Shown here one piece after another: positions 31,854-57,609 of a DNA stretch of 64,000 bases; the first letter of the stretch is position 1; each line of letters starts with the position of its first letter. Origin of the DNA: a virus; the IMG/VR virus record IMGVR_UViG_3300020027_000005, positions 1-64,000 of that record; one strand, written 5' to 3'. A program made the position numbers and the translations under genes. The notes beneath the pieces are model-generated. The model was not told the origin of the DNA. It worked only from the letters and a program-made list of their open reading frames with translations, and searched no databases.

Positions 31854-31862
31854 GGTGGTAGG

Positions 31863-37671: not shown

Positions 37672-37689
37672 CTTCTTTTCTCCCCTTCT

Positions 37690-40397: not shown

Positions 40398-40989
40398 TGG
40401 CAGCCTTGAAGTCGATGAACTGTTGTTCGGTGAGGGCTACTGCCGGTGGGTGCAGAGGAAGTGTTCTCGGGTAGAGACCCAGTAGGGTATCGACCCACGG
40501 ATGAAGACCCTCGATGCACCTGGTTCCTGACTCGTCGAACCACTCTTTGAGAACGACGACGAACCTGTAGGTCGGCTCTCCGGGAAGCCCGCGAAGCTCG
40601 ACGTGGAGAATGGGCTGTTCTCCTACCGCCATGGCTCCGTTCACCAGTTTCGACCAGATTTTTGGAGTGACGGTAAAGTGCCCTCTACTTGTTTGCTTTG
40701 CTTCCACTCGCCACACTCCGAATGTCCTTCCGTCTCCATCCAGCCCTAAGGCACCAGAAGCTGGGGTAGCTCTGGCACCGACCAAGGCGTTGGCGCGCTT
40801 TTCTTGAGCACGCCAACTACTCTTGTTCCGAAGATGGATGGGTTGAGGCCGACGGAAGCGACTGCAATCTTCCTTATGCCGGATGTTGTCCGACACCTGG
40901 ACTTTGTCTCGTCCAATGCTCTTGCCGATGAAGAGGATTCCGCCTTCACCGCATTCTCGACAAGTCACTTTTCGTGGGCCTTTCTCCAC
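40372..40989 (-). CDS. Hjc-like PD-(D/E)xK nuclease with N-terminal Zn module
   Basis: QEKR...TPASGA...GDG...VEAKQT; CREC...H...C. Confidence 0.65.
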   Translation of the reverse strand: MEKGPRKVTCRECGEGGILFIGKSIGRDKVQVSDNIRHKEDCSRFRRPQPIHLRNKSSWRAQEKRANALVGARATPASGALGLDGDGRTFGVWRVEAKQTSRGHFTVTPKIWSKLVNGAMAVGEQPILHVELRGLPGEPTYRFVVVLKEWFDESGTRCIEGLHPWVDTLLGLYPRTLPLHPPAVALTEQQFIDFKAANESSGSDL

Positions 40990-42098
40990 TACCGGGTCAA
41001 CTTCTGGGCCAGGAGTCCGACCAGTTCCTCCGCCAGAGATTCATTTCCCTGGAGAGTGAGGATGGCGTTTTCCTTTCCCTGACCCAGGCGAATGTCCCCG
41101 TAGTTGTACCAGGAGCCGCTCTTCTGGATGAGGCCGTACTGGCTTCCGTAGTCGAGGAGTTCCCCGAACATCGAGATGCCCTTTCCCCAGATGATGTCCA
41201 CTTCGCAGGACCTGAAGGGAGGGGCGACCTTGTTCTTCACGACGTTCAGTCGAGTCCGACTTCCGAACTTCTCGTCGTTGGCCGAGAGGGCTCCGAGCTT
41301 CGTCGTCTCAATCCGAATCGAGGCGTAAAAAGGCAGAGCCTTCCCACCGCTCGTCGTCTTCGGGCTCCCGAAGGTGACTCCGATTTTCTCCCGCATCTGG
41401 TTCAGGAAGATGACGACCGCGTTGCTCCTCGCGATCTTCGGGGTCATGATCCGAAGCGCCTGACCCATGAGACGAGCCTGGCCACCTGGATTGTGGTCCC
41501 CGATCTCTCCGTCGAGCTCCTTCTGTGGAACCAACGCTGCGACGGAGTCGATGACGACCAAGTCCACCTTCCCCGTCTCGACGAGGTGGGAGACGGTCTG
41601 AAGGGCTTGTTCACCGTTGTCCGGTTGATAGCCGAGGGTCGAATCCAGATCGACTCCGAGGGCCTGGGCGTAGTTCGGGTCCAGGGCGTGCTCGACATCC
41701 ACGAACGCTGCAATACCACCCGCCTTCTGACACTGATGAACGCAGTGCAAGGCCAGGGTGGTTTTTCCCGAGGCGTAGTCCCCGTAGATCTCGACGATTC
41801 GCCCACGAGGAAGTCCACCAACTCCGAGAGCGATGTCGAGGCCGAAAGAACCGGTGTGGATGACTCCACGGACCTCTTCTCTGAGTCCGTGAACTCCTCG
41901 CAGGGTGGACATCTGGATGCCCTTCCCGAAGGTCCTCCCGCAGATCTCATCGAGAGCGGCCAAACGCTCTTCTGGAGTCTTGGCCTCCGTCATCATGTTC
42001 CGTTGTTCGGCGAGGTTCGCATGCTCGTTCGTCTTCGGAATCATCGGATTCTCGGCGACGAGCTTCGGACCGAGGGTGTCCCGACTCTTGCGGCCCAC
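40989..42098 (-). CDS. recA: RecA recombinase
   Basis: TGSFGLDIALGVGGLPRGRIVEIYG..ASGKTT; VVIDSVAALVP; QARLM; IFLNQMREKIGV; KNKVAPPF. Confidence 0.98.
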   Translation of the reverse strand: MGRKSRDTLGPKLVAENPMIPKTNEHANLAEQRNMMTEAKTPEERLAALDEICGRTFGKGIQMSTLRGVHGLREEVRGVIHTGSFGLDIALGVGGLPRGRIVEIYGDYASGKTTLALHCVHQCQKAGGIAAFVDVEHALDPNYAQALGVDLDSTLGYQPDNGEQALQTVSHLVETGKVDLVVIDSVAALVPQKELDGEIGDHNPGGQARLMGQALRIMTPKIARSNAVVIFLNQMREKIGVTFGSPKTTSGGKALPFYASIRIETTKLGALSANDEKFGSRTRLNVVKNKVAPPFRSCEVDIIWGKGISMFGELLDYGSQYGLIQKSGSWYNYGDIRLGQGKENAILTLQGNESLAEELVGLLAQKLTR

Positions 42099-42272
42099 CT
42101 ACTGTTCCTCCCGAAAGAGTTCCTGCTGGCAGTCCTCCTTCTGGACGATTTTGTCCTCCTGTTGGCCCGTGTTGACCACGGCCCTCTCGGTTCTCGACTT
42201 GTCGACTACCTTGGAGGCTTCCACGTGAGCCTTCTTCTCCTTCGGCGTGTTCACCACTGCGCGCTTTTCCAC
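42099..42272 (-). CDS. Small hypothetical protein (57 aa), not in ORF track
   Basis: AGGAG RBS plus GTG start; fills the polymerase-recA gap; RAVVNT occurs twice. Confidence 0.55.
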   Translation of the reverse strand: MEKRAVVNTPKEKKAHVEASKVVDKSRTERAVVNTGQQEDKIVQKEDCQQELFREEQ

Positions 42273-42280
42273 GGTTTCTC

Positions 42281-44197
42281 CTACTTTTCGGCCCAGTTTT
42301 TCGCAATCTTCGGTTTCACCACGAGAGGGACTCGCAGCGGAGGGTTGAGGGGCGTCGACATGTAGTACTCCATGATCTCCCTAGCCTCTGATGCCGTTTC
42401 AATCGGCCCTTCTCCGATGAGCTCGTCATGGACCTGGTGGATGAGAGCCCACCCCAAGTCTGCGAATCGTCCATCTGCGGCGAGGTTGATCATGGCTCGT
42501 TTCACGATGTCGGCAGCAGACCCCTGGATCGGGGCATTCTGTGCTTGTCGAAGTGCATGGCCGATTTCCCTGCTTCGGCCATACTTGGCTTTCGAAAGTC
42601 TGCGGAAGCGCCCGCAGATCGTTTGAACATATCCCCGACTCTTCGCCTCGTAGTGTTTCTCGGCGATCCAGCGACGAACACCAGGGTAGGTGTTGAGGTA
42701 TTGGTTGATGAAGGTCTGGGCTTCGTCTTGAGAGACGTACCGACCGAGCTCTTCGGAGAGCTGTGCGGCCAGACCAACCTTTGACTCGCCATAGAGAATC
42801 CCGAACCCGGTCTTCTTCATTGCGGTTCGTTTCTCTTCTATCCAGCTCTCTCCCCGTTCACGAGCTGCGACACATTCGTCGTAGTCAGCGTTTTCGATGG
42901 TGCTGACCGTGAAGATGTGCATGTCCCGGCCATCGAGGATGGCATTGATCATCGTCTCGTCGCCAGACATGTCGGCGATGATTCGCATCTCCAGCTGCGA
43001 GTAGTCCCCGATGATGAAGGCGTTCCCCTCCTCGGGGAGGAAGGCTTCCCGAATTCGGTAGGGGTCGTCCTTCGTGATTTGAGGAACGTTCTGCAGGTTC
43101 GGGTTCGAACTCCCGAGTCGGCCCGTAGTCTTTGTCGGGCTGTAGTCGGTGTGGACCCGGCCATCGAGAAAGAGGAACTTCAGGATTCCGTCGACGTAGG
43201 TGCCACGAAGTTTGCTGCACTTCTTGTACACCATGACGAGCTTGGCGACGGGATCCTGGGTCTTTCCGAGAGCCAGATGGGAAAAGAGCGTCTCGTTGAC
43301 CTGCGGGACCTGCTTCTTTTCGGTGAAGGAGAGCGGGGTGTACTTCTTCACGTTGAAGAAGTACTCGCCCATCTGGTCGGTCGAGTTCGGGTTGATGGGG
43401 TAGCCGACGAGCTTGTTGATCTCGAAAGCCGTTTCTTCCATCTTCTCTTCGAGGACTGCTCTCACCTTCTTGAGATGGTCGACGTTGACCCGCATTCCGC
43501 GGCGTTCCATTCCCCAGAGTGTCTTGAGCTGCGGTTCCTCGGTGTCCCAGTACATCTGGGTCAGCGTGTAGGGATCGTTCTCGTCGTCTGCTGGCCAGAC
43601 TTCGATCTTGTCGAGAAGTCCGAACAACTTCATGGCCAGGATTCGCGTGGCCCATGGGTCGAGGGACGAGTAGTCGAGGTACTTCTGCCACGCAGGGTGT
43701 CCGGGTTTAATGGCCCGCGGGTCCTCGCTTCCGAACAGCTCCTTGTACTCGTTCATCGGGTAGTCGAAGTAGTCGGCCATGCAGTCTTTGAGGCCGTGCC
43801 GGTTTTCTCGGCGGTCTTCATCTACAAGGAAGTCGAGAACCACGGTGTCGATCCAGGGACCGCCAACTTTGATGCCCGAGGAGTTCATGATCCTGTGCAC
43901 GTCGAACTTTGCGAAGGTCAGCGCCTTCGGTACATCCGATTCCAGAACAGGGCGGAAATAGTTGAGGTTCACCCTCGGGACGAGGTATCTGACATCGTCC
44001 CGAGGGCTGAGCCCCATGACCACCACTTCGTCGGTCATGTTGAAGCGCTTGGACCCGTCCTCGTTCTTGAAGAGACCCAAGGTCTCGGTGTCGACGCCCA
44101 GCATCACCTCTGCATCCAGGCAGTCCCGGATGGCAGTTTCGATGAGCTGGGGTGTGTCGACGTAGATCGGAGGAGGGGCGAAGGTCTGAAATCTCAT
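42281..44197 (-). CDS. polA: Family A DNA polymerase (3'-5' exonuclease plus polymerase, no 5' nuclease)
   Basis: Exo I DTET; motif A DYSQLEMR; motif B RTAMKKTGFGILYG; motif C HQVHDEL. Confidence 0.97.
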   Translation of the reverse strand: MRFQTFAPPPIYVDTPQLIETAIRDCLDAEVMLGVDTETLGLFKNEDGSKRFNMTDEVVVMGLSPRDDVRYLVPRVNLNYFRPVLESDVPKALTFAKFDVHRIMNSSGIKVGGPWIDTVVLDFLVDEDRRENRHGLKDCMADYFDYPMNEYKELFGSEDPRAIKPGHPAWQKYLDYSSLDPWATRILAMKLFGLLDKIEVWPADDENDPYTLTQMYWDTEEPQLKTLWGMERRGMRVNVDHLKKVRAVLEEKMEETAFEINKLVGYPINPNSTDQMGEYFFNVKKYTPLSFTEKKQVPQVNETLFSHLALGKTQDPVAKLVMVYKKCSKLRGTYVDGILKFLFLDGRVHTDYSPTKTTGRLGSSNPNLQNVPQITKDDPYRIREAFLPEEGNAFIIGDYSQLEMRIIADMSGDETMINAILDGRDMHIFTVSTIENADYDECVAARERGESWIEEKRTAMKKTGFGILYGESKVGLAAQLSEELGRYVSQDEAQTFINQYLNTYPGVRRWIAEKHYEAKSRGYVQTICGRFRRLSKAKYGRSREIGHALRQAQNAPIQGSAADIVKRAMINLAADGRFADLGWALIHQVHDELIGEGPIETASEAREIMEYYMSTPLNPPLRVPLVVKPKIAKNWAEK

Positions 44198-45303
44198 CCA
44201 GGTCTCCTAGGCCCTTTCATGTGTTCTCGAATCCAGGCAATGGCTTCCTTCTCGCTGGCCCCGTACACGAAGCCCTCGAGTTCCAGGTCCTGGAGTTCTC
44301 GTTCCATCCCGTTCAGCGTGACCTCTCGGAGGGACCACTCCTTGGGTTCCATCTGAAAGAGGTCGACGTAGCCCTGCAGTTGTCGGAGCAGTTCGTTCTT
44401 CCGACCCTGAAGGCTTCCTTCTTTCCCCTCGCGGTGCAGCGTGTCGATCTCTACGTCGGACAAGCCGTGCCATCGGAGAATGGCGACGCCCTCGACGAGG
44501 CTGTTGCTGGCGTTTCTCTGAACCAGCGTCGTGGCAGTTGACCGACTTCCGGGCGTGTAGCTCGTGTATTTTCGAAGCGCCTGAAGACCAGACTCTGGAG
44601 CTTCCCAGCTCACCTGGGCCACGTCGAGGTACAGCTCCCGATCCTTATGGGTGTGGACCCCGATCTTCAGAAGCGGGACCAACATTCCGAACACATCAGG
44701 TTCGTTGTCCCTCTGCATCATGCCGAGGAAATCCGGACGCCCGACATTCGTAGGACAGGTGATCCCGAACTCCATTTCGTAAAAGGCCTTGAAGTGCTTG
44801 GCGTTGACCCCGAGGATTCTTCCGTCGAGATCGAAGGTGTAGATGTGGGCCGTCGGTTCAGGAGCGAATCGACTCGAGGTAGGATCCGGTCTCTGGTACT
44901 GGACTCTCGCAGCTCCTCCTCCGAAGAGATCGGTCAGGTTGTAGAGCGGCTCTTCCCAGATGTTCTGGTTCTCGGACAGCAGCTCTCGGACAGTCTCTGC
45001 GGTGAACCTCTGGTACATGGCGTACTTGTCGGCTGACAGGTAGATGTCGAGCGCCCTGGCTCCACGGTCTGGGACGAACTTCTTGGCCTCGGCGAAGACT
45101 TCTTTGGCGTTGATTACTCGCCAGTCGACGAGAGTTCCGTCGGGGGCATCGTTCAAGATTTCGAGAACGTCACTCGTGAAGTAGTGATCAGCTCCGGAGG
45201 TGACGATGAGCCACTTTCCGGAGCTGATGTAGATCGTGTCTTCGTCGACGAGCATGACTGCGTCACCCAGCGCAGCCATGTGCTCCGAAGAGATGTTCAA
45301 CAT
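44194..45303 (-). CDS. Hypothetical protein
   Basis: 369 aa; GGAG RBS; ATGA coupling to the polymerase. Confidence 0.75.
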   Translation of the reverse strand: MLNISSEHMAALGDAVMLVDEDTIYISSGKWLIVTSGADHYFTSDVLEILNDAPDGTLVDWRVINAKEVFAEAKKFVPDRGARALDIYLSADKYAMYQRFTAETVRELLSENQNIWEEPLYNLTDLFGGGAARVQYQRPDPTSSRFAPEPTAHIYTFDLDGRILGVNAKHFKAFYEMEFGITCPTNVGRPDFLGMMQRDNEPDVFGMLVPLLKIGVHTHKDRELYLDVAQVSWEAPESGLQALRKYTSYTPGSRSTATTLVQRNASNSLVEGVAILRWHGLSDVEIDTLHREGKEGSLQGRKNELLRQLQGYVDLFQMEPKEWSLREVTLNGMERELQDLELEGFVYGASEKEAIAWIREHMKGPRRPG

Positions 45304-45317
45304 CGTTCGCTCCGTGT

Positions 45318-45355
45318 AGGTAGGCGGAAGGGTGAACTTCCCTTTCCGCCTACCT
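45318..45355. terminator. 15-bp stem-loop downstream of the SSB gene
   Basis: AGGTAGGCGGAAGGG/TGAACTT/CCCTTTCCGCCTACCT (one bulge). No U-tail, so it may be a processing or stabiliser stem. Confidence 0.45.
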
Positions 45356-45362
45356 TATGCGC
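45350..45362 (-). promoter_or_regulatory. Candidate phage promoter motif GCGCATAAGGTAG
   Basis: Identical 13-mer at 53533-53545; both copies are intergenic and lie about 45 nt upstream of minus-strand starts. Confidence 0.6.
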
Positions 45363-45371
45363 GGAACCGAA

Positions 45372-46571
45372 CTACACTCGACGGAAGCTGCGAGCTCCGC
45401 CACCGCCCTTGAAGCCACCCGCAGGGCCCGTTCCCCAGGGGTTCACCTTCTTGATGGCCTCGGCCTGGGCGTCGAGCACGGCGTTGACGTACTCCTCGTC
45501 TTCCTTGTGGTCGTTCGGGTTGATCCACTCCGGACGGAAGGTCCAGGAGAAGTCGATCGGAGCGAGGATCTTCTTGATTTCCTCGTCTTCGAATCCCCAG
45601 GCTTGCAGCGTCTCTTCGGCGGTCTCGAAGATCTCGCAGTTCGTGTCGAAGGTGAAGACCTTGTCCTCGTACTTCTTCTTGTCCCAGGTCTCCTTCATCT
45701 CGCCCGAGCACATCACCCGTACGGACTTGTCGAAGATCGAGCCGGGCTTGGCCTCGTGTTCTCCTCCCCGACAGGCGAAGACCTGGGTCGGGCTGTCCTT
45801 GCTGGTGCAGTTCGGGCAGACCACGTCCTTCTTGGACTTGGCCTCGATCTCCTTCGTCGGCATCCGCCGGACCTTCTCCGGGTCCTCGAGGTTGTGACCG
45901 CACTCACGGCAGTTGAGCTCGATCACGTAGGCCTCTTGTTCGCAGAGAGACCCGTCTTCGTGCTGGAAGATGCAGATCTTTTTGAGGCGCTGATGTGCAG
46001 CGAAGATCTGCCCGAGGTGGTCGTCCTTCAGCTCCCACCGGCGAGCACCGCCGAAGAGCCGGGCCTTGGTCGCCTCGTCTTCGTCCGCACACTGCTCACA
46101 GCGGTCGGGGTCTCCGTCGGGCCCTTCGACGTTGCAGACGATCACGTCCTTCCCTTCCCCGGTGCTGGACGCGCTGATGTGGTAGTACCGGAAGTCGGTC
46201 ACCTGCATCATCGACCGGGACTGCTGGTTCAGCCGAGACTGGACCTTCTTGTACTGCTCCTTCTTGCTCCGAGCCTCCTCGAGCTTCCGCTGCTCGTTGG
46301 TCTTGTGGTCGGTGTCGTAGTGGCAGTAGCAGCACTTCCCGCTGAAGAGGGCCATCTCGGCCGTACAGGTCTTCGGCCCCGTTCCTTCGGGCCAGTGGTA
46401 CTTCCGAACGTAGGGCTGTTCCCCGGTCGGGTGGAACCGGCAGAGGGCCTGCTCGTCGACGGAGAGGCGGAACTCGCTCATCTCCCAGGGCTTGAGGCCC
46501 TTCTGCTTCCGAGCGGCGCGCTCCTTCTCACGGTTCAGTACGTGGGCACGGAATCCATCGAATTCACTCAC
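45372..46571 (-). CDS. gp32-like single-stranded DNA-binding protein with extra Zn ribbons
   Basis: F.L......CRF...YH......TC.......CCYC; several CxxC pairs; between primase and polymerase; GAGG RBS before GTG 46571. Confidence 0.6.
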   Translation of the reverse strand: MSEFDGFRAHVLNREKERAARKQKGLKPWEMSEFRLSVDEQALCRFHPTGEQPYVRKYHWPEGTGPKTCTAEMALFSGKCCYCHYDTDHKTNEQRKLEEARSKKEQYKKVQSRLNQQSRSMMQVTDFRYYHISASSTGEGKDVIVCNVEGPDGDPDRCEQCADEDEATKARLFGGARRWELKDDHLGQIFAAHQRLKKICIFQHEDGSLCEQEAYVIELNCRECGHNLEDPEKVRRMPTKEIEAKSKKDVVCPNCTSKDSPTQVFACRGGEHEAKPGSIFDKSVRVMCSGEMKETWDKKKYEDKVFTFDTNCEIFETAEETLQAWGFEDEEIKKILAPIDFSWTFRPEWINPNDHKEDEEYVNAVLDAQAEAIKKVNPWGTGPAGGFKGGGGARSFRRV

Positions 46572-46580
46572 AGGAACCTC

Positions 46581-46628
46581 ACTTAGGATCATTTGAATTA
46601 CGTAGGGTCTTTGGAATTACTTAGGATC
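46581..46628. repeat. Three direct repeats with exact 19-bp period
   Basis: ACTTAGGATC (46581), ACGTAGGGTC (46600), ACTTAGGATC (46619), separated by ATTTGAATT and TTTGGAATT. Confidence 0.85.
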
Positions 46629-47628
46629 AAAGGCGAAGTTGAATTGGGCTTTGGGCCTCGTCGATCATATCCTGAACTTCTTTTTCGTTCAGGGAATCTG
46701 GCTGCGTATTGATGGTCCGAGACTTGTACTGGCAGATCAGGGCCTTCCCTGCTCGGCCTAGAGCCTCCGCAATCTGTAGCGCAGCACAGCGCCCAAAACT
46801 GTCCGGGAATCCTTTTCCAGCTTGATGGTCGAGCATCACGTAGAAGGGACCTGCCAATCTTTCCAGCAGGGTTCTCTGCGCCCGTGAAAGGGATGAACCT
46901 TGAAGCGCGACCGTGTGAGGGAATCCGAGCTGTCTCAACCAGAGACACGCTTTGTACCCTTCAACCAGAATCAGAGGCGAACAACCGGCCTCATCCTTAA
47001 AGAACCGTTCCGGGTACACGGTGTGAAACCCGTAGAGGTGTCGACGGTTGTCCGGGACGTACTTCTCAACGACCCCGTAGAACTCTCCGCCTTTCCGCGC
47101 GTCGTACACCTTGTAGCGAGGACTCATCCAGTTCTCGATTGCCCTCCCGTTGATTGCCGCCAGCCGGCCCGCGAAATCGCGAACCGGAAAAGTGATCCTC
47201 TGGCGTTGCGCGTCGTACCCTACTTCATGGGCTCGGAGGATTTCTTCTGAAAAGCCCTTTCGTAGAAGTTGAGCAGGCGGCCCCCCGTAAACTCCCAGGA
47301 TGTATTCGGGAAGGAATACGGGCTCCTTGGCCAGCTCGGCCCTTATGCGCAGAAAGTCTGGAACCGCGAGCTTCGGCTTGACGTTCTGAACCGTCCTGTC
47401 GATTTGTGTTGGCGACAGGCCGAGTTTTCGTAGCAGCGTGACGAAGGACCCGCTCTCACCGCAGTCTCGGTGAAAACAGATCCAGGCTCCGGATTCCAGA
47501 CTGATGCTGAAAGTTCGGTCGTCCCCCGAGTGGAAGGGACAGACGGCCTTCAGGTTGCTCTCTCCCATGGGCCGTACTTCCGAGAAGTACAGGTCCATGA
47601 TTTCTTGAACCCGGACCTCGAGGCTCAC
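46627..47628 (-). CDS. dnaG: DnaG-like DNA primase
   Basis: CPFH...CF..DC zinc finger; RITFP...GR...RY; TOPRIM LVEGY...VALQG...LD. Confidence 0.9.
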   Translation of the reverse strand: MSLEVRVQEIMDLYFSEVRPMGESNLKAVCPFHSGDDRTFSISLESGAWICFHRDCGESGSFVTLLRKLGLSPTQIDRTVQNVKPKLAVPDFLRIRAELAKEPVFLPEYILGVYGGPPAQLLRKGFSEEILRAHEVGYDAQRQRITFPVRDFAGRLAAINGRAIENWMSPRYKVYDARKGGEFYGVVEKYVPDNRRHLYGFHTVYPERFFKDEAGCSPLILVEGYKACLWLRQLGFPHTVALQGSSLSRAQRTLLERLAGPFYVMLDHQAGKGFPDSFGRCAALQIAEALGRAGKALICQYKSRTINTQPDSLNEKEVQDMIDEAQSPIQLRL

Positions 47629-48293: not shown

Positions 48294-48309
48294 ATCCACG
48301 GCGATCTCC

Positions 48310-49665: not shown

Positions 49666-49685
49666 TGGCTCTCCGAGAAAGACCG

Positions 49686-49716
49686 CCCCCCGCTCCGCAA
49701 CTAACGGAGCGGGGGG
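49686..49716. terminator. Perfect 12-bp GC stem-loop upstream of the helicase
   Basis: CCCCCCGCTCCG/CAACTAA/CGGAGCGGGGGG; weak U-tract on the minus strand. Confidence 0.5.
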
Positions 49717-49744
49717 ATGCGGGGTTTGAGGACAAGGGGTTCGG

Positions 49745-49756
49745 CTAGCTTATGCC
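49745..49756 (-). promoter_or_regulatory. Candidate promoter motif variant GGCATAAGCTAG
   Basis: Intergenic, upstream of the helicase; matches GCATAAGnTAG. Confidence 0.5.
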
Positions 49757-49789
49757 GTCAATCTCTTCAGGGTCAACGGCGAGAGATGG

Positions 49790-50083
49790 CTAGCCGAACT
49801 TGACGCCCTGATCCTCGTCTTCGTCTTCCGTGCCTTCCCCATCCCCGGATTCTTGAACGGAGATGATCGACAGGAAATCGTTCTCGATCGACGCACACAG
49901 CGCCTCGGCCAGCTTCCGACTCTCCAGACTCAAGGCGGAGAACAGCGAGAAGCTGACCGGGTTGTAGTTCTCATCGACCAGGACGATCTTCGCCATGTCG
50001 AGGGGGGTCGGTCCGAGTCGTCGGAGCCGCACCTCGCCGACCATGACCCCCGACAGACGTATGTTCCGGATGAAGGGAGTCAC
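49790..50083 (-). CDS. Hypothetical protein with acidic tail
   Basis: Coupled ORF in the operon. Confidence 0.7.
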   Translation of the reverse strand: MTPFIRNIRLSGVMVGEVRLRRLGPTPLDMAKIVLVDENYNPVSFSLFSALSLESRKLAEALCASIENDFLSIISVQESGDGEGTEDEDEDQGVKFG

Positions 50084-50421
50084 TTCTTCATCTCCGGGAA
50101 GAACTTCAGGACGACCTGGTTCGACCGCTCCCGAAGCTCACGCTCTACGTGGTCGTAGCACTCCTGGTAGGTCACTGCGACGGACTCTTCGTCCGGCAGG
50201 CAGGGAAGCGTGCACCACACGGCGACTTCGAACTTCTCGCTTCCGTATTCCTTGGCCATGCCGATGCTGGCCGAGAGTCCGACACTGGCCGTCTTCTCGG
50301 GAGACGCCTTTCCTGGGGGCATTACGATCTCCTCCATTTCATTGTGTTGCTCACGGCCCTTCTTCACCGTGACGCGGTAGCCGGTCTTGAGTGGTGCGGT
50401 AGTTCCGCGTCCAGGATTCAT
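50080..50421 (-). CDS. Hypothetical protein
   Basis: Coupled ORF (ATGA and GTGA overlaps). Confidence 0.75.
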   Translation of the reverse strand: MNPGRGTTAPLKTGYRVTVKKGREQHNEMEEIVMPPGKASPEKTASVGLSASIGMAKEYGSEKFEVAVWCTLPCLPDEESVAVTYQECYDHVERELRERSNQVVLKFFPEMKK

Positions 50422-51008
50422 TCGTCACCCAGACCTTTGAATTGAACGGAGACACTCGGGCTCCGCTCTTTGACGGCGATTCGGTACCTTTCGAGGTTCT
50501 TGATTTTCACCTCTCCAGATGCGATCAGCCTTTCGAGAACATCCGGATAGACGACTCGCCCGACCACGGGGTCGCCATCCACGTAGATCTCTTCCAGTTC
50601 CGGATGGTCTTCCAGAAGTTCCTCGGTTCTGTAGGAGACTGAGAATCTGGTGGAGCTCACTTTGACCTTCACCCGGCCCTGGTCGAAGACGAACGACTCT
50701 TGCAGGGCTTCTTCAGGAAGGTTGTGACAGTAGTTCTTGACGTCCTCGACCTTCCTCTCGATCCCTTTCCCTACCTTCGCGAGTTCGTCCACGAGGTCGC
50801 CGTTGCCTTTCTTCACCTTGGCCTGGAGCTCCTCCACTTTCTTCTGGAGAGTCTGCATGGCCGAAAAGTAGGCGGCGATTTCCCCGAAGGCGTCTTTGTT
50901 GTCCTCCACGAGGAGTGACTGAAGCAGGGCCAGGTGGTCCTGTTCCGAGGCCAGATCCTCCAGCATCTCCTGGAGGGTCTTCGCCTGTTCTGTTGAGAGG
51001 TGGTTCAT
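50418..51008 (-). CDS. Hypothetical coiled-coil protein
   Basis: GAGGAG RBS; coupled to neighbours. Confidence 0.75.
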   Translation of the reverse strand: MNHLSTEQAKTLQEMLEDLASEQDHLALLQSLLVEDNKDAFGEIAAYFSAMQTLQKKVEELQAKVKKGNGDLVDELAKVGKGIERKVEDVKNYCHNLPEEALQESFVFDQGRVKVKVSSTRFSVSYRTEELLEDHPELEEIYVDGDPVVGRVVYPDVLERLIASGEVKIKNLERYRIAVKERSPSVSVQFKGLGDE

Positions 51009-51691
51009 CTTTCTCCTCGATCCGGCGGGATGGTCCCTCGGTAGATGAGGGCGTATGTGTCTGCCACCTCGAATGCCTTCTTCCAGATCTTGAACGAGGA
51101 TTCGACAGGCCCGCCTGGTTTGTCGTTCCAGTTGTCCAGAAGGCGCTGCGGGTGGTGAGAAACGAAACCCGTTCTCGGGATGGGAAGGAGAACTCCCATG
51201 GTCGTGACCTCCACCTGCTGGCGGTGGACGTCATTCAACGCTTTCGTCATGGAGATCGGGCTCGAGCTCAAGGTCTTGAAGGCGACGTCTCCCAGAAGGA
51301 GAACGACGAAGGGGTCCACGACCTCGATGATTCTCTGGAGCCGCGCGGAGCAGGCCTTGATCTCGTCGTTGGCCGGCTTCCTGTCTTGCTTCGGGTTGTT
51401 GATCTCCGTTGCACGACAGCCCACGACATTCGTGAGGTACACGTCTCGTCTGCTCGACCCGATGTAGTGGAGGAGGCTGTCTACGAGCTCCCCAACTCTT
51501 CCTTTGAAAGGCTGCCCAGCCATCTCGTCTTCTTTCGAGGGGGCGTCGCCAACGATGAGGACCTGGGCATTCGGGTTCCCTTCTCCGAAGACCACCTGCC
51601 TCCTGACTCTACCCTCGGGCTGGCAGAGACCACACCGGGTGCAGTCTGTCCAGGCTTCTTGGGTTTCTTGGAGCTTTTGTACTTTATTCAT
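51005..51691 (-). CDS. Uracil-DNA glycosylase, family 4-like (Fe-S)
   Basis: CTRCGLC; VVFGEGNPNAQVLIVGDAPS; GQPF.GR.G; TNVVGCR; HP. Confidence 0.9.
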   Translation of the reverse strand: MNKVQKLQETQEAWTDCTRCGLCQPEGRVRRQVVFGEGNPNAQVLIVGDAPSKEDEMAGQPFKGRVGELVDSLLHYIGSSRRDVYLTNVVGCRATEINNPKQDRKPANDEIKACSARLQRIIEVVDPFVVLLLGDVAFKTLSSSPISMTKALNDVHRQQVEVTTMGVLLPIPRTGFVSHHPQRLLDNWNDKPGGPVESSFKIWKKAFEVADTYALIYRGTIPPDRGER

Positions 51692-53058
51692 GTCCCCCGC
51701 GCGATTTCGAAGGGATAACGCAGGTTTGTCAGCAGATGCCGCATCTTCTTGCAAGCAGTGTGCATGGGCCGGATGAATTCGTCTTCGAACACGATGACGA
51801 CCGGGACTTTCTTGTTGAGCACCGGTCGCTGGATTCTTCCGTAGACCTGCCGAAGCATTCCCTCGTCCGAGATCCCGAAAGGAAGGATGAGACAGTCGAG
51901 ATCCTTTCTATCCAGACCCTCTTTCGCAAGCTGAAGGATGGCGAAAATCAAGTTGCAGTTGTTGAGGACCTCGGCCCTGTCGACGCCCTTGTGCTTTCCG
52001 TGAATCATCCCTGCCTTCACGGAGGGGCGATCCTTGTAGAGTCCGAACATCTTCTCGACGTGTTCGACCCGAGGCGAAAGAAACAAAGGCTTCCTGCCCT
52101 CCAAGAGGAGGGGTTCAATCCAGGAATGGATCTGCGCATTCCGACGTTCGTCTTCGGAGAGCAGGGTCCAGAGTTTCGGGATGTTGAGTTCTCCCAGCCG
52201 GTCCATCGCCTTCGCGAAGTCGACGTGGTCCAGTCGACGGCCTGTTCGAACAAACCAGGTTTCTGGAATCACATCTTGCTCGTAGTTGGAGTAGAGCACT
52301 CCCCCCAGGTGGTGCTGGTAGAGCATGTCGCACCCGTCTCGACGACCAGGAGTCGCGCTCAACCCCCACCGGATTCCCTTGATGAGACCCGCAGTGGTGT
52401 TGAACTCTGGCGCTCCCAGGTGGTGGACCTCGTCGTAGATTCCGACGCCGAAGTGGTTCCTCATTTCTTCAGGGAACTCTTCGGAGTCCATTCTCGAGGC
52501 CAGAGTCTGAATCGAGGCGATGCAGAGAGGATGTTCCCAGTCCCACCTGTCTCCTCGAATTGTTCCGACATCTTCTGCCCGAAGAGTCGTGTGCTCTACA
52601 ATTCGATCCCGCCACTGCTGCTCGAGGTCGATGGTGTGGACGACGATCAGACCGGGCGTCTGAGCCCAGACCCATCTGTCGAGAGCGACTACCGTTTTCC
52701 CCGCGCCACACGCGAGCGAAAGAATCCCGGAGCCTCTGTCCGACATGATGGAAGCGCTGGTGAACTGCACCGGTCCCCGAAGCTCCGAGCGCATTTGTGC
52801 GCCTTCGAGCTTCGGGAACTGTGTGTACGAGGCGTCTTCGATTTCGAAGGGCAAGGTGCCCCACTCGTCGAAGGGGAGGAACTCCCGAGGAACCACGAGG
52901 TGGTTCTCCGTGAGTCCCCAAGCATCTACCCTCGTTCTGTCTGGAAGGTAGAACGTGAGGGAATTCTGAATCCCCTGGATACTCTTCATGTGTTTCAGGG
53001 GGAGCCAGAGCCAGTCCTTTCGGTAGCCCAGCTCCGGACTCAGAGTCTTTACTCTCAT
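51688..53058 (-). CDS. SF2 DEXH helicase (UvsW / ResIII-like)
   Basis: CGAGKT; DEVHH; LSATP.RRDG; EGLD; QVYGRIQR. Confidence 0.92.
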   Translation of the reverse strand: MRVKTLSPELGYRKDWLWLPLKHMKSIQGIQNSLTFYLPDRTRVDAWGLTENHLVVPREFLPFDEWGTLPFEIEDASYTQFPKLEGAQMRSELRGPVQFTSASIMSDRGSGILSLACGAGKTVVALDRWVWAQTPGLIVVHTIDLEQQWRDRIVEHTTLRAEDVGTIRGDRWDWEHPLCIASIQTLASRMDSEEFPEEMRNHFGVGIYDEVHHLGAPEFNTTAGLIKGIRWGLSATPGRRDGCDMLYQHHLGGVLYSNYEQDVIPETWFVRTGRRLDHVDFAKAMDRLGELNIPKLWTLLSEDERRNAQIHSWIEPLLLEGRKPLFLSPRVEHVEKMFGLYKDRPSVKAGMIHGKHKGVDRAEVLNNCNLIFAILQLAKEGLDRKDLDCLILPFGISDEGMLRQVYGRIQRPVLNKKVPVVIVFEDEFIRPMHTACKKMRHLLTNLRYPFEIARGT

Positions 53059-53073
53059 CCTTCCTCCCCGGAA

Positions 53074-53490
53074 TTACTCCCGGTAGTTCGTCGGCTTTCT
53101 TGGGTAGAGCCGTCGTCTCCGGAAGAAGTAGGCGATCTCTTCGCCTGCTGCGAATGCTGCCGCTGCGACTGCGACCTCGAGAACCCGTAATCCCAAGTCC
53201 TTGAGGATTTCTCCGAAGGTTGGCGGTTCCCATTCATGGAGATCTTCTTGTTTTCGAAGGACGGGAACTTCGTGCGCCCCGATTCGATCTCCATCACTGT
53301 TTCTTTCTGCACGGACGATGGTCGGCCCTTGCCTGGTTTCTGGGCGGGGGCTTCCTGCATTTGCAGGTCGCATAACCGGGGATGGTGCTCGGGAAGGTTG
53401 GACACCCGTGAACGAGTACGGGCTTGAGGATGACGTGGTCGGCCCACCACTTCGCAGGCGGGCGAAGATATCCTGCTGCTCGTCCGACAT
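53074..53490 (-). CDS. Hypothetical protein, first gene of the replication operon
   Basis: GAGGTG RBS; disordered N-terminus; Ala-rich hydrophobic C-terminal helix. Confidence 0.7.
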   Translation of the reverse strand: MSDEQQDIFARLRSGGPTTSSSSPYSFTGVQPSRAPSPVMRPANAGSPRPETRQGPTIVRAERNSDGDRIGAHEVPVLRKQEDLHEWEPPTFGEILKDLGLRVLEVAVAAAAFAAGEEIAYFFRRRRLYPRKPTNYRE

Positions 53491-53532
53491 GATTGCTTCA
53501 CCTCTCTAAAGGCGTGATACTTGGGTTGTCAT

Positions 53533-53545
53533 CTACCTTATGCGC
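53533..53545 (-). promoter_or_regulatory. Candidate phage promoter motif GCGCATAAGGTAG
   Basis: In the divergent gap heading the whole minus-strand operon. Confidence 0.62.
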
Positions 53546-53575
53546 CCGAAAATCACTTTCGGTTGGAGTGCTTCG

Positions 53576-54661: not shown

Positions 54662-54664
54662 AAC

Positions 54665-55333
54665 GTGCCTGAGCCTCTTGTTCGCAGAGCCGGTCTTCTC
54701 GAAGACGAACAGGGTCTGCACCTCATCACTCTGAGTGTGCTTCTGCTCGATCTACTCGGGCCGGAGTACTTGTTCTGGACTTCTGAGGCGCTCCGAGAAG
54801 AGCTCCAGGAGAGGTACGGGAAAATCGGCGTCGTGACCTGGGAGCGGGTTCAGGCACTCCGAATTCTCCACGTCCATGACGCCTACTGGCAGGAGTGGGA
54901 AGTCTTCGAGAAGGTCACGGCTGCCATCTGTGGAGAGCCTCCGATCTTCAGCCTGGTTCAGCCACAGGAAGCAGAGGAAGTGTTCATCTCTCTGTCGACG
55001 GCTTCGCGAATCGACCAGCATGACTTCGACGAAGATGTTCGGAGCTACATGGTGGCGGCGTGCCTGAACGACGGGCTCTGGTATTTCGAAGAGCCCGTCG
55101 CAGCGGTCGGAAGTTCGGAGCTCGTGGAGTTGGACACTCGACAGGGGATTCAGAGACCATTCGGGCTCATCTCGGCAGAACTCGAAAAGTCCAACAAGTT
55201 CCGTCCGGAGTCAGACGACCCTGTGCTCACCCAAGTGAATCGGGTTCTAGAGGTGCGGCAGGCGCTTCGACTGTACAATGAGGCGGTCGATAGGCAGCTG
55301 CTCCAGCTCCCACAACTGCTGAAGGGTGTTTGA
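54665..55333 (+). CDS. Hypothetical protein
   Basis: Coupled to the portal-like gene. Confidence 0.75.
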   Translation: MPEPLVRRAGLLEDEQGLHLITLSVLLLDLLGPEYLFWTSEALREELQERYGKIGVVTWERVQALRILHVHDAYWQEWEVFEKVTAAICGEPPIFSLVQPQEAEEVFISLSTASRIDQHDFDEDVRSYMVAACLNDGLWYFEEPVAAVGSSELVELDTRQGIQRPFGLISAELEKSNKFRPESDDPVLTQVNRVLEVRQALRLYNEAVDRQLLQLPQLLKGV

Positions 55334-57246
55334 TGGCGGGCATTGGGACAACTGGATTCGGACCCGGAAGCGCTTCCCGGTTTTCGAACAACCAGTCGAC
55401 AACAGGGAACAACGTTCGATACCCGTCCCCCTGGTGGGACATTTCGAACATGGACCTTCCGAGGTCCGTGAAGCACCTCTTCAAGTGGTGCCTCTACCAT
55501 GTTCTCGTGAATCCACTCGTTGCTCCAGTTGTTCGGAAGATGGCGGCCTACCCCATCACCGAAATCATCATCGAGGACGAGCCGCACGAAGGCTTCCAGA
55601 AGCACAAGGAGCGGTGGGAAGACTGCCTCTTCAAGACCCTGAACATCGACCAGTTTCAGCTGGAGATCGGGCTCGACTACCACGGCTACGGGAATGCCCT
55701 GGTCTCGCTGCTCACTCCGTTCCACAAGGTTCTGACCTGCACCCACTGCAAGTACGAGGAGCGGATCAAAAAGCTGAAGTTCGGTGAGGTGTGGGACTTC
55801 AAAGAGTTCAAGTTCATCCTGCACTGTCCAAAATGCAAGATGAGTGCGACCGCGAAGGTCGACGATGTATCGTACAGGTCTTTCCGGGACTTGAAGATCA
55901 TCCGATGGAACCCGGCAGACATCGACATTGATTTCAACCCGATCACTCGAGTGGCCGAGTACGCGTACAACATTCCGGAACGGGTGAAGACCAAAATCCT
56001 CCGGAAGAACAAGCGCTACTTGGAAGAGATTCCACAGGTCATCTTTCAGGCCATGAAGGAGCAGCGAGCTGTCCTTCTGAACCCAGACAACCTGTACCAC
56101 TTCAAGGCCCCGACTCCGTCTCTGCCGTCGAGTGACGAAGGGTGGGGCTACCCGCCGATCCTTCCGGCATTGAAGGACTCGTTCTACTTGCAGCAGATGA
56201 AGAAGGCGCAGGAGATGGTGCTTCTCGAGCACATGCTCCCACTCGACATCTTCTTCCCGGCTTCAGCCGACGCGAATGCGAATCCCTATCAGATGATCAA
56301 CCTCCACGACTGGAAGCAGCGGGTGGAGGCGGAGATCACTCGCTGGAAATGGGACCCGAACTACAAGCCCATCATGCCCATTCCCGTCGGGCATCAGCGA
56401 ATCGGAGGGAACGGAAAGGCCCTCATGCTCACCCAGGAGATTCGAGCCTGGTCCGAGCACATCATCGCTGGCATGGGAGTTCCTCAGGAATTCGCTTTCG
56501 GTGGTCTGACCTGGTCCGGGTCCAGCGTCTCTCTCCGGATGCTCGAGAACCAGTTCTCGAACTACCGGTCGATGCATGAGAATTTCCTGCAGAACTGGCT
56601 CATCCCCAGGATCGCCAACTACATGGCGTGGTCTGAAATCTCCATCCATCTCCGTGACTTCAAGATGGCCGACGACATGCAGCTCAAGCAGCTGCTGATC
56701 ACGTTGAACCAGATGAAGAAGATCTCCGACAAGACCCTCCTCGCCGAGTTCGGGCGTGATGCGCTCGAAGAGTCGAAGCTGATGGAGCAGGAGATGCAGC
56801 GCCAGATGCAGATGCAGCGGACGCAGATGATGTACACGACCCAGATCCAGGTCGAAGCTTCGGCGATCCAGATGAAGGGCCAGATGAAGATGCAGGAACA
56901 GCAGATGAAGGCCCAGCAGAAGGCGATGGGTGGCCAGGCTGTGGATCCGCAGACTGGAATGCCGATGCAGGGTGCCCAGGGCGGAGGAGTTCCAGGCACT
57001 CCGGCGCAGGGTCCGCAGGGTGGACAGGAAGGCCAGAGCGTCGATGTACGTCAACTCGCAGAGGCGTACGGGAAAAAACTGGCGAACATGCCTCCAGAGC
57101 AGGCAGCCCCGATCCTCCATCGGATGTCCCAGGAGAATCCGCAGCTCCATATGCTCGTGATGCAGGCCATGCAGACGAACACGACTGCGGACATGCGCCC
57201 TCTGCCGGAACAGCGCCCTCCGACACGAGAGACGGGACTGGTCTAG
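55333..57246 (+). CDS. Putative portal protein with Zn-ribbon insertion
   Basis: NPLV..VV.KMA.YP; DY..YGNA.V; LYHFK...WGYPPI; IIAGMGVP.EF..G; Q/M-rich tail. Confidence 0.65.
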   Translation: MAGIGTTGFGPGSASRFSNNQSTTGNNVRYPSPWWDISNMDLPRSVKHLFKWCLYHVLVNPLVAPVVRKMAAYPITEIIIEDEPHEGFQKHKERWEDCLFKTLNIDQFQLEIGLDYHGYGNALVSLLTPFHKVLTCTHCKYEERIKKLKFGEVWDFKEFKFILHCPKCKMSATAKVDDVSYRSFRDLKIIRWNPADIDIDFNPITRVAEYAYNIPERVKTKILRKNKRYLEEIPQVIFQAMKEQRAVLLNPDNLYHFKAPTPSLPSSDEGWGYPPILPALKDSFYLQQMKKAQEMVLLEHMLPLDIFFPASADANANPYQMINLHDWKQRVEAEITRWKWDPNYKPIMPIPVGHQRIGGNGKALMLTQEIRAWSEHIIAGMGVPQEFAFGGLTWSGSSVSLRMLENQFSNYRSMHENFLQNWLIPRIANYMAWSEISIHLRDFKMADDMQLKQLLITLNQMKKISDKTLLAEFGRDALEESKLMEQEMQRQMQMQRTQMMYTTQIQVEASAIQMKGQMKMQEQQMKAQQKAMGGQAVDPQTGMPMQGAQGGGVPGTPAQGPQGGQEGQSVDVRQLAEAYGKKLANMPPEQAAPILHRMSQENPQLHMLVMQAMQTNTTADMRPLPEQRPPTRETGLV

Positions 57247-57366
57247 TCGTCGCTCTCTTCTTCAGCGACGACAGACCCAGCTGCTACTCTTCCTCTTCAG
57301 CCCTTGCGGTAGCGAGGGACAGCAGGAAGCCGTTCAACACACCTAGGAGAACACACCACCACCACA

Positions 57367-57552
57367 TCAGGCGGGGTCCGGAGTGCTGTCCTCGCTCTTT
57401 CCACGATCGTCAGCGTCATCATCGACGCTCCAGAGCGACTCCCGCAGTCTTTGGTCGACCACGGACTGCCCTTGAGTAGTCTCCTCCTCTTCCTGTTCCC
57501 GCTTCTTCTTCCTCTTCTCTTCCTCGGTCATCGATTCTCCAGAAGCCGACAT
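57367..57552 (-). CDS. Small charged protein (61 aa), antisense islet
   Basis: GGAG RBS; K/R-rich then D/E-rich; preceded by GCGCATAAG. Confidence 0.55.
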   Translation of the reverse strand: MSASGESMTEEEKRKKKREQEEEETTQGQSVVDQRLRESLWSVDDDADDRGKSEDSTPDPA

Positions 57553-57568
57553 TGTTGGCTCCAACATT

Positions 57569-57577
57569 CTTATGCGC
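57569..57577 (-). promoter_or_regulatory. Candidate promoter motif GCGCATAAG
   Basis: Intergenic, 16 nt upstream of the minus-strand ATG at 57552. Confidence 0.55.
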
Positions 57578-57609
57578 GATAGACTTGGGCAGCTTTCGTA
57601 GGATGGACG

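What the first reader, a model, noticed from the sequence alone, without database searches (positions are those of the whole stretch)
40873..57577. Recurrent minus-strand motif GCATAAG(nTAG) upstream of non-structural genes
Seen: GCGCATAAGGTAG at 45350-45362 and 53533-53545 (identical), GGCATAAGCTAG at 49745-49756 and GCGCATAAG at 57569-57577. All are intergenic, share one orientation and lie upstream of minus-strand starts. Two intragenic copies occur at 47342-47350 (spelled with rare-looking ATA and AGG codons in the primase) and 40873-40880. I saw no intergenic copy oriented toward the + strand virion genes. Inference: an early or middle promoter element for the phage RNAP or sigma.
Basis: partly seen in the sequence, partly recalled or inferred. 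Interest (0 to 1): 0.75.

Follow-up and report, generated by a model that had tools for sequence, protein, structure and literature searches.

The report
Phage-specific promoter motif (G)CATAAG
The recurrent GCATAAG word is most likely the core of a promoter read by this phage's own sigma factor and single-chain RNA polymerase; the same nATAAG signal heads genes in distant relatives, including the cultured Salmonella phage Arash, so it is testable at the bench.

Summary
GCATAAG occurs 7 times in the window and 9 times in the 76.5-kb contig, always on the minus strand (1.26 expected in the window). Six copies are intergenic and point at minus-strand starts.

I read it as the -10 element (Y-12 A T A A G-7) of a sigma70-family promoter. 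A pyrimidine-purine step lies exactly 7 nt after the last G in 7 of 8 intergenic copies, against 3 of 12 genic ATAAG.

An unbiased word count upstream of genes puts nATAAG first in this phage, in three complete uncultured relatives and in Salmonella phage Arash (GGTATAAG 15 seen, 0.6 expected). In two complete relatives the motif follows gene direction on both strands. The canonical TATAAT is nearly absent between genes (Arash: 47 TATAAG, 3 TATAAT).

The four complete genomes examined and this contig encode a bacterial-type beta/beta' RNA polymerase (one chain here, separate genes in Arash) and a conserved small sigma factor (window 13495-14214). Published mass spectrometry found both in Arash virions. 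So the motif probably marks early promoters read by an injected phage holoenzyme.

No transcript 5' ends were mapped, and polymerase and timing are inferred. The other notes this scan shows on the motif are readings of this same stretch. I found no published promoter consensus for this lineage.

The parts
45354..45362 (-). GCGCATAAG promoter core between two minus-strand genes (stop at 45372, next start at 45303). Predicted start of transcription is G at 45347.
   Evidence: C at -1 and G at +1, 7 nt after the last G
45319..45354 (-). 14-bp stem-loop that begins at the last base of the motif. The predicted transcript starts with its inner 7-8 bp hairpin.
   Evidence: There is no T-run after it. 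The 5' UTR fold is -9.9 kcal/mol, no better than shuffles (z -0.01).
49749..49756 (-). GGCATAAG promoter core upstream of the DnaB-like helicase gene (start 49665). Predicted start is G at 49742.
49771..49776 (-). TTGACC, a -35-like hexamer 16 nt upstream of CATAAG. This is the only site in the contig with a good -35.
   Evidence: The orthologous gap in relative G001 reads TTGACC-N15-CATACT.
49686..49716 (-). Strong GC hairpin with a partial T tail, between the 49749 motif and the helicase ribosome-binding site.
   Evidence: -36.8 kcal/mol for the leader, z -2.7. It could be an attenuator, a terminator or a stabiliser; this is unresolved.
53537..53545 (-). GCGCATAAG promoter core at the head of the minus-strand replication block (first start at 53490). 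It lies in a divergent gap. Predicted start is G at 53530.
57569..57577 (-). GCGCATAAG promoter core 16 nt upstream of a small acidic minus-strand ORF, in the gap before the RNAP gene. Predicted start is G at 57562.
57367..57552 (-). 61-aa very acidic ORF divergent from the RNAP gene, the likely target of the 57569 promoter.
   Evidence: Similar small acidic ORFs lie at the same place in G001 and G002, each with the motif upstream.
47342..47350 (-). GCGCATAAG inside the DnaG-like primase gene (sense strand), spelled with one of only 4 ATA codons in the genome. Possibly an internal promoter.
   Evidence: It lacks the pyrimidine at -1.
40873..40880 (-). GGCATAAG inside a real minus-strand gene (40372-40989). 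Its status is uncertain.
10305..10311 (-). GCATAAG antisense inside a + strand gene. Probably a chance copy.
   Evidence: It has no GC prefix and no Y-1 R+1 step.
13495..14214 (+). Phage sigma70-family factor (239 aa, regions 2-4), the proposed reader of the motif.
   Evidence: PHROG 351, E 1.2e-10; ortholog profile against RpoS/SigA/RpoD, E about 1e-9; orthologues
57610..63780 (+). Single-chain beta-beta' multisubunit-type RNA polymerase (2056 aa), the proposed catalytic partner.
   Evidence: Rpb2_6 E 4e-66; Rpb1 domains 1-5; large family

Best explanation
GCATAAG is the -10 element of a phage-specific promoter class: C/T at -12, then A-11 T-10 A-9 A-8 G-7, with G at -13. A sigma70-family factor encoded by the phage (13495-14214) recognises it. 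That factor most likely works with the phage's own single-chain beta-beta' RNA polymerase (57610-63780). Transcription would start at a purine 7 nt downstream of the last G, that is at 45347, 49742, 53530 and 57562 on the minus strand. These starts would drive the replication, recombination and small accessory genes.

RNAP and sigma are virion components in a cultured relative, and their genes lie in the virion-gene blocks here. The holoenzyme is therefore probably injected, and these are probably early promoters.

Shown: the motif's position, direction, geometry and lineage-wide conservation, and the presence of the sigma. Inferred: which enzyme binds, the start sites and the timing.
For: 1. 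Count and strand. There are 7 copies in the window against 1.26 expected, and 9 of 9 in the contig are on the minus strand.

2. Unbiased enrichment. The top 6-mers upstream of genes are GCATAA and CATAAG here, TATAAG and CATAAG in G002, TATAAG in G003 (17 vs 0.34) and GATAAG in G004 (21 vs 1.1). In Salmonella phage Arash the top 8-mer is GGTATAAG (15 vs 0.6).

3. Direction. In the complete relative G002, 30 of 38 G[CT]ATAAG are intergenic, and 22 are followed within 70 nt by a Shine-Dalgarno sequence, a start codon and an ORF. The reversed reading gives 7, and control words give 0-1. The sites lie on both strands and follow the genes. G003 gives the same picture.

4. Geometry. In G002 positions -14 and -13 are G in 26 and 30 of 30 sites, and T is the commonest base at -15 (14 of 30). 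Position -1 is a pyrimidine in 27 of 30, and +1 is a purine in 23 of 30. The Y-1 R+1 step is present in 7 of 8 intergenic against 3 of 12 genic sites here, and in 25 of 28 against 4 of 11 in G003.

5. G at -7 is specific. Intergenic YATAAG against YATAAT is 38 vs 2 in G002 and 26 vs 1 in G003. In Arash, TATAAG against TATAAT is 47 vs 3, although its host's primary sigma prefers TATAAT (T-12 ATAAT-7 in review PMC7598289).

6. The sigma factor is present and conserved in every complete relative and in Arash.

7. Arash virions contain RNAP beta (the top spectral count), beta' and sigma gp10 (PMC10585845). All 31 GGTATAAG in Arash are intergenic, 30 of them on the strand opposite the virion, RNAP and sigma genes. 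This is the same asymmetry as here.

8. The intragenic primase copy uses one of only 4 ATA codons.
Against: No transcript 5' ends exist for any of these phages.

In this genome the TG of an extended -10 is missing. Position -14 is C in 4 sites, G in 3 and A in 1 of the 8 intergenic sites. Only one site has a -35.

The closest fetchable relative, G001 (RNAP 58% identical), has only two clean intergenic copies, both in divergent gaps.

At 57569 the predicted 5' UTR is only 10 nt and starts at the GGAG.

At 49749 a terminator-like hairpin follows the motif, an odd order for a promoter.

In G002 the block that holds the sigma gene is itself headed by the motif. That needs either delivered holoenzyme or another way to start.

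The pooled signal over 80 diverse loci is weak: 12% of GG.ATAAG are followed by a start, against 4-5% background.

Virion mass spectrometry can also pick up abundant carry-over proteins, as the Arash authors themselves say.
Confidence: 0.62

Rival explanations
1. The motif is a promoter read by the phage sigma, but bound to the host core RNA polymerase. This would resemble T4 gp55 or SPO1 gp28 redirecting the host enzyme. The phage beta-beta' enzyme would then use other signals.
For: The sigma is a full sigma70-family protein, closest to RpoS, SigA and RpoD, and might dock on a bacterial core. Jumbo phages that carry sigma factors but no RNAP use the host core in this way (PMC7824862).
Against: Sigma and the beta-beta' enzyme co-occur in all four complete genomes examined and in this partial contig. 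The two other partial records (G001, G005) show no sigma in the part held. Both proteins are abundant in Arash virions. The phage RNAP is of bacterial type and is the obvious partner.
Confidence: 0.2
2. These are ordinary host promoters. The host primary sigma with host RNAP reads the motif as a slightly off-consensus -10 for host-dependent early genes.
For: The word resembles TATAAT at 4 to 5 of 6 positions. The 49749 site has TTGACC at 16 nt, and the matching G001 site reads TTGACC-N15-CATACT.
Against: G at -7 is fixed while TATAAT is almost absent between genes, including in a Salmonella phage. T at -7 is one of the two bases that sigma70 flips out and binds (review PMC7598289). The core is kept across phages of 53-62% GC, which presumably have different hosts.
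Confidence: 0.08
3. The motif is not a promoter. It is a binding site for a phage regulator, an RNA processing or stability signal, or part of a terminator module placed after stop codons.
For: In this genome a hairpin follows the motif at several sites (45354, 49749, 70400, 72580). The motif often lies 12-35 nt after the upstream stop codon. An 11-bp inverted repeat brackets the 49749 site.
Against: The pyrimidine-purine step at a fixed 7 nt, the G-14/G-13 prefix, and the 18-55 nt spacing to SD-led starts fit a -10 element. So does the motif's presence at the heads of gene blocks with no upstream gene on that strand (53537). The hairpins are not general in relatives.
Confidence: 0.06
4. The functional reading is the + strand word CTTATGC, at least at 53537 and 57569. 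It would be a start-site motif for the RNAP block, like the phiKZ late T-3 A T G+1, or a strand-specific DNA signal unrelated to gene direction.
For: All copies share one strand whatever the neighbouring genes. At 53537 and 57569, and at the two orthologous G001 sites, CTTATGC ends 31-35 nt before the + strand start codon. In G002 three such sites share CTTATGCCACCGA.
Against: In G002 and G003 the motif follows gene direction on both strands. The TATAAG variants hold no TATG. The G002 subclass reads as TGCAAC-N17-CATAAG in the minus sense. Four sites here would be antisense. The one-strand bias is explained if only minus-strand genes belong to this class, as in Arash.
Confidence: 0.04

Closest known systems
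Bacterial sigma70-type extended -10 promoters (TGnTATAAT)
   Same: An AT-rich hexamer lies at -12 to -7 with A at -11. In relatives G at -14 is strong and T is the commonest base at -15. A pyrimidine-purine start step lies 7 nt downstream, and no -35 is needed. A sigma70-family protein with regions 2, 3 and 4 is encoded by the phage.
   Different: Position -7 is G in every site, not the T that sigma70 binds. Position -12 drifts between phages (C here, T in G003 and Arash, G in G004). In this genome the TG is missing. The presumed core enzyme is a phage single-chain beta-beta'.
T4 late promoters (TATAAATA, read by phage sigma gp55 with gp33 and the clamp)
   Same: A -10-only promoter defined by a phage-encoded sigma-like protein.
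   Different: The word differs. T4 uses the host core enzyme and a minimal sigma. Here the sigma is full length and comes with a phage polymerase. This comparison rests on my own knowledge, not on a tool result.
Early promoters of phiKZ/AR9-type jumbo phages (virion multisubunit RNAP)
   Same: A short, highly conserved AT-rich word centred near -10 heads early operons and can be found by counting words. The polymerase is carried in the virion (PMC7598289).
   Different: Those polymerases are split into 4-5 chains, are far from bacterial enzymes, and have no sigma factor (PMC7824862). Their late promoters (TATG at the start site; AACA-N6-TW on the template strand) are unrelated to this word.
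Salmonella phage Arash (cultured relative, BMC Microbiol 2023, PMC10585845)
   Same: It has orthologous RNAP (32% identity), sigma (26%) and portal next to the RNAP gene. TGGTATAAG lies 28-48 nt before minus-strand starts.
   Different: Beta and beta' are separate genes there. The -12 base is T, and TG is present. The paper reports no promoters.

Membership tests
sigma70-family -10 / extended -10 promoter | Directional placement upstream of genes, outside coding sequence | tested here: met
   Six of 9 GCATAAG are intergenic, in about 6% of the contig, and all point at minus-strand starts. In G002, 22 of 38 are followed by SD, start and ORF, against 7 for the reverse reading.
sigma70-family -10 / extended -10 promoter | Hexamer with A at -11 and T at -7 | tested here: not met
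   A at -11 is kept, but -7 is G in all sites. YATAAT is nearly absent between genes. It therefore works like a -10 element but is not a canonical one.
sigma70-family -10 / extended -10 promoter | Start of transcription 6-8 nt after the hexamer, usually a purine after a pyrimidine | tested here: inconclusive
   The sequence signature is present (7 of 8 here, 25 of 28 in G003, 27 and 23 of 30 in G002). No RNA ends are available.
sigma70-family -10 / extended -10 promoter | TG at -15/-14 when no -35 is present | tested here: inconclusive
   It is met in relatives: G-14 is 26 of 30 in G002 and 19 of 28 in G003, and Arash reads TGGTATAAG. It is not met in this genome, where -14 is C in 4 sites, G in 3 and A in 1, and only G-13 is fixed.
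sigma70-family -10 / extended -10 promoter | -35 hexamer near TTGACA at 16-18 nt | tested here: not met
   Only 49749 has one (TTGACC, 16 nt). The G002 logo shows only a weak A-A near -31/-30 (columns -19/-18 of the table, counted from the motif's first G).
sigma70-family -10 / extended -10 promoter | A cognate sigma70-family factor is available | tested here: met
   Gene 13495-14214. It is conserved in G002, G003, G004, Arash and Vibrio phages.
phiKZ non-virion RNAP late promoter (T-3 A T G+1) | TATG on the coding strand overlapping the start site, pointing at the gene | tested here: not met
   TATG appears only in the reverse reading, which points away from four of the six intergenic targets. 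The TATAAG variants in relatives lack it.
N4 virion RNAP hairpin promoters | A small DNA hairpin upstream of the start site is itself the recognition element (from my own knowledge) | tested here: not met
   Hairpins here lie downstream of the motif, differ in size and are not general in relatives.
Strand-specific genome signals (nick sites, Chi-like or packaging words) | One strand throughout the genome, irrespective of gene direction and coding status | tested here: not met
   In G002 and G003 the word switches strand with the genes and is concentrated between genes.

The most novel reading that the evidence does not exclude
A widespread phage lineage of about 180-210 kb, ranging from uncultured environmental phages to Salmonella phage Arash, packages a complete bacterial-type holoenzyme in the virion. 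Here that is one beta-beta' chain plus a private full-length sigma. The holoenzyme starts infection from its own nATAAG promoters. Their fixed G at -7 would make them close to invisible to the host sigma, and host TATAAT promoters a poor fit for the phage sigma. This would be a third way of host-independent early transcription, beside N4's single-subunit enzyme and the sigma-less split enzymes of phiKZ.
Probability: 0.4. Interest if true: 0.78.

Novelty: new variant of a known kind. Interest (0 to 1): 0.62.

Why it matters
It gives a concrete, testable promoter consensus for a large phage lineage that carries a bacterial-type RNA polymerase together with its own sigma factor. I found no published promoter for this lineage: the Arash paper and the 2020 paper on RNAP-encoding phages contain none. 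The review I read notes that phiKZ-like jumbo phages with RNAPs lack sigma factors, and that sigma-bearing jumbo phages lack RNAPs.

The fixed G at -7, where sigma70 binds a flipped-out T, offers a natural experiment on how a sigma pocket changes specificity. A cultured member exists (Arash on Salmonella Typhimurium ATCC 14028), so start sites, timing, rifampicin independence and in vitro specificity can be checked directly. A compact orthogonal sigma, polymerase and promoter set could also serve as an expression tool.

Tried and rejected
1. The + strand reading CTTATGC. It was attractive because its ATG is the first in-frame ATG of the + gene at 53540, and because the spacing to + starts is steady in G000 and G001. 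I rejected it after the complete relatives showed the motif following gene direction. A better start with GGAG lies at 53576.

2. A strand-specific DNA signal (nick, Chi or packaging word), suggested by 9 of 9 copies on one strand and 13 to 1 in G001. I rejected it because most G001 copies are genic chance hits, and G002 and G003 use both strands.

3. A -35 element. The logo shows none. CGAAAG-like words upstream lie at varying distances.

4. AGTTCG at -44 to -46 in three sites. This is not significant after allowing for the post hoc choice, and one copy is simply RNAP codons 2-3 on the other strand.

5. Hairpins as the recognition element or as terminators. They are not general, and most lack T-runs.

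6. Pooled tests on 80 loci around RNAP genes. They give only weak signal, because the -12/-13 bases differ between phages and missed small genes blur the orientation classes.

7. Rfam finds nothing in the window. The sigma70-consensus scan finds 1 hit in 40-58 kb, fewer than in shuffles.

8. Megablast of the region against GenBank phages finds no match.

Full report
**What is there**

The window is the first 64 kb of a 76.5-kb viral contig that CheckV rates 44% complete. Relatives reach 180-210 kb.

I called genes by codon score. The + strand blocks are 1-36475 and about 53540-64994. The minus-strand blocks are 36577-53490 and 65027-74917.

The first minus block holds these genes:
- RecA (40989-42098)
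- family A DNA polymerase (42281-44197)
- DnaG-like primase (46627-47628)
- DnaB-like helicase (48310-49665)
- an SF2 helicase (51688-53058)

The + blocks hold a baseplate-like protein, an SNF2-type helicase and a sigma factor (13495-14214). They also hold the orthologue of the Arash portal (55330-57246) and, right after it, a 2056-aa single-chain beta-beta' RNA polymerase (57610-63780).

**The observation**

- GCATAAG occurs 7 times in the window against 1.26 expected; none of 100 shuffles reaches 7.
- It occurs 9 times in the contig, never on the + strand.
- Six copies are intergenic: 45354, 49749, 53537, 57569, 67833 and 72580.
- Two GAATAAG variants (67454, 70400) are also intergenic and on the minus strand.
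- All 8 intergenic ATAAG carry G[CA] in front, against 0.96 expected.
- Without any prior motif, GCATAA and CATAAG are the most enriched 6-mers in oriented upstream regions.
- The primase copy is spelled with an ATA codon, one of only 4 among 1154 Ile codons. This argues that the word is kept there by selection.

**Which way does it point**

This needed care. The reverse complement CTTATGC holds an ATG that opens the + ORF at 53540. At 53537 and 57569 the motif lies in divergent gaps. In the closest fetchable relative (G001, RNAP 58% identical) the only two clean intergenic copies lie in the same two gaps, 31-32 nt before the + starts.

Those gaps also contain minus-strand starts about 41 nt away. 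These belong to a missed 130-aa ORF and a 40-aa acidic ORF.

Complete relatives settled the matter.
- In G002 (193 kb, RNAP 42% identical) G[CT]ATAAG occurs 38 times, against 9 for the reversed control word.
- Thirty of the 38 are intergenic.
- Twenty-two are followed within 70 nt by a Shine-Dalgarno sequence, a start codon and an ORF of at least 40 codons. The other reading gives 7, and controls give 0-1.
- The sites lie on both strands according to gene direction.
- G003 (178.5 kb) repeats this: 26 intergenic YATAAG and 3 genic.

The one-strand bias here means that only minus-strand genes carry this class.

**What kind of signal**

Aligned sites have the anatomy of an extended -10 element.
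- In G002, G at -13 is 30 of 30, G at -14 is 26 of 30, and T is the commonest base at -15.
- The core is Y A T A A G.
- Six positions later comes a pyrimidine (27 of 30) followed by a purine (23 of 30). This is the usual -1/+1 step at the usual distance from -7.
- The same step is present in 7 of 8 intergenic sites here against 3 of 12 genic ATAAG, and in 25 of 28 against 4 of 11 in G003.
- No -35 emerges, except TTGACC 16 nt upstream at 49749.

Predicted starts are 45347, 49742, 53530 and 57562. Two predicted transcripts (45354 and 70400) begin exactly with a stem-loop.

**Who reads it**

The last base is always G. The canonical YATAAT is nearly absent between genes:
- 2 against 38 YATAAG in G002
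- 1 against 26 in G003

The -12 base drifts between phages: C here, T or C in G002, T in G003 and G in G004. ATAAG stays fixed and is the top upstream word in each genome.

Each complete genome has an orthologue (35-40% identity) of the 239-aa protein at 13495-14214. That protein matches PHROG 351 'RNA polymerase sigma factor' (E 1.2e-10). As a four-sequence profile it matches RpoS, SigA and RpoD chains over regions 2 to 4 (E about 1e-9).

**A cultured anchor**

A tblastn search found the RNAP and the sigma in Salmonella phage Arash and in Vibrio phages D69, D181 and D148.

In Arash:
- the top upstream 8-mer is GGTATAAG (15 vs 0.6);
- all 31 copies are intergenic;
- 30 of them lie on the strand opposite the portal, RNAP and sigma genes;
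- they lie 28-48 nt before start codons;
- the consensus is close to cTGGTATAAGtaaagtGTAA;
- intergenic TATAAG outnumbers TATAAT 47 to 3.

Sigma70 holoenzymes read T-12 ATAAT-7 and bind the flipped-out A-11 and T-7 (PMC7598289). A host reading of these sites is therefore unlikely.

The Arash paper reports virion mass spectrometry. RNAP beta gp206 had the highest spectral count of all proteins, and beta' gp216 and sigma gp10 (100% coverage) were also found. The authors suggest a role in early transcription but allow that the proteins may be carry-over. The paper contains no promoter analysis (PMC10585845).

**Most likely mechanism**

A phage holoenzyme, made of the single-chain beta-beta' and the phage sigma, binds GCATAAG as its -10 element. 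It opens the DNA there and starts 7 nt downstream. It is probably delivered with the DNA.

The targets in this window are:
- the head of the replication block (53537)
- the DnaB-like helicase gene (49749)
- the gene after 45354
- perhaps a start internal to the primase gene (47342)
- a small acidic ORF next to the RNAP gene (57569)

The RNAP, portal and sigma genes carry no forward copy in G000 to G003 or in Arash. This fits a different, later class for them.

The motif anatomy and its conservation are shown. The enzyme, the start sites and the timing are inferred.

**Weak points**

- No RNA data exist.
- This genome lacks the TG.
- G001 has few copies.
- A terminator-like hairpin follows the 49749 motif.
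- In G002 the block that contains the sigma gene is itself headed by the motif.

**Comparison and novelty**

The signal works like an extended -10 promoter but fails the T-7 criterion. It is unrelated to the phiKZ TATG and AR9 AACA-N6-TW late promoters.

The jumbo-phage survey notes that phiKZ-like (group 1) phages with multisubunit RNAPs have no sigma, and that sigma-bearing jumbo phages (group 2) have no RNAP (PMC7824862). The 2020 description of RNAP-encoding phages has no promoter analysis (PMC7481178).

I rate this a new variant of a known kind. It is of moderate to high interest, because it is directly testable in a cultured phage.

Earlier notes of this scan on the same genome proposed the same system and the packaged-holoenzyme idea. 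I treated them as leads. I tested the motif, the RNAP and the sigma myself, and I tested the packaging idea only through the Arash paper.

Noticed in passing
window 57367-57552 (-): A 61-aa, very acidic ORF lies divergent from the RNAP gene. Similar small acidic ORFs sit at the same position in G001 (40 aa) and G002 (48 aa), each behind the motif. It might be a DNA mimic or an RNAP-associated factor.
   Followed up: partly
window 26774-26780, 31858-31864, 57598-57604 (+): GTAGGAT lies upstream of three + strand genes, including 6 nt before the RNAP start codon. Three of the 5 genome copies are intergenic. It may be a second, + strand promoter class (TAGGAT as a -10), but the statistics are weak.
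   Followed up: partly
window 53526-53553 (+): This is the only sigma70-consensus hit in 40-58 kb (TTGTCA-16-GAAAAT). It lies just before the first gene of the RNAP/portal block and overlaps the minus-strand motif. It is not above shuffle expectation.
   Followed up: no
window 53540 vs 53576 (+): The + gene after the divergent gap more likely starts at ATG 53576 (GGAG 7 nt upstream) than at the ATG inside the motif at 53540, which has no ribosome-binding site.
   Followed up: partly
window 49789-49799 and 49739-49749 (-): An 11-bp inverted repeat (GTTCGGCTAGC / GCTAGCCGAAC) brackets the -35 and -10 of the 49749 promoter. It may be an operator or an RNA structure.
   Followed up: no
window 55330-57246 (+) and 6857-8614 (+): The 638-aa protein just upstream of the RNAP gene is the orthologue of the Arash portal gp204 (E 1e-91). 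The SNF2-type helicase matches the Arash ORF at 141261-142679. The Arash paper lists gp217 'DNA helicase' as virion-associated, but I did not check that it is this ORF. The transcription genes sit among virion genes.
   Followed up: partly
whole contig: ATAAG is strongly depleted overall (20 copies on both strands, against about 86 that I estimated by hand from base composition). ATA codons are almost absent (4 of 1154 Ile codons).
   Followed up: partly
window 1-3267 (+): The first ORF runs off the contig. Its orthologue in G002 (36995-40897) is the first gene of the long + block and is preceded by GTATAAG 22 nt before the start. The promoter of this block may therefore lie just off the contig.
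   Followed up: partly
Arash record (loci L203-L211), e.g. 26740, 66487, 100243, 138590, 173364: A repeat of at least 80 nt containing a palindromic TATAAG/CTTATA centre occurs at least five times between genes in phage Arash.
   Followed up: no
G002 36926, 110232, 121228 (loci L169, L173, L174): Three sites share TGCAAC-like -35 words 17 nt upstream of GCATAAG (CTTATGCCACCGA on the + strand). All lie in the gaps before the three main + blocks. They may form a stronger subclass of the promoter.
   Followed up: partly
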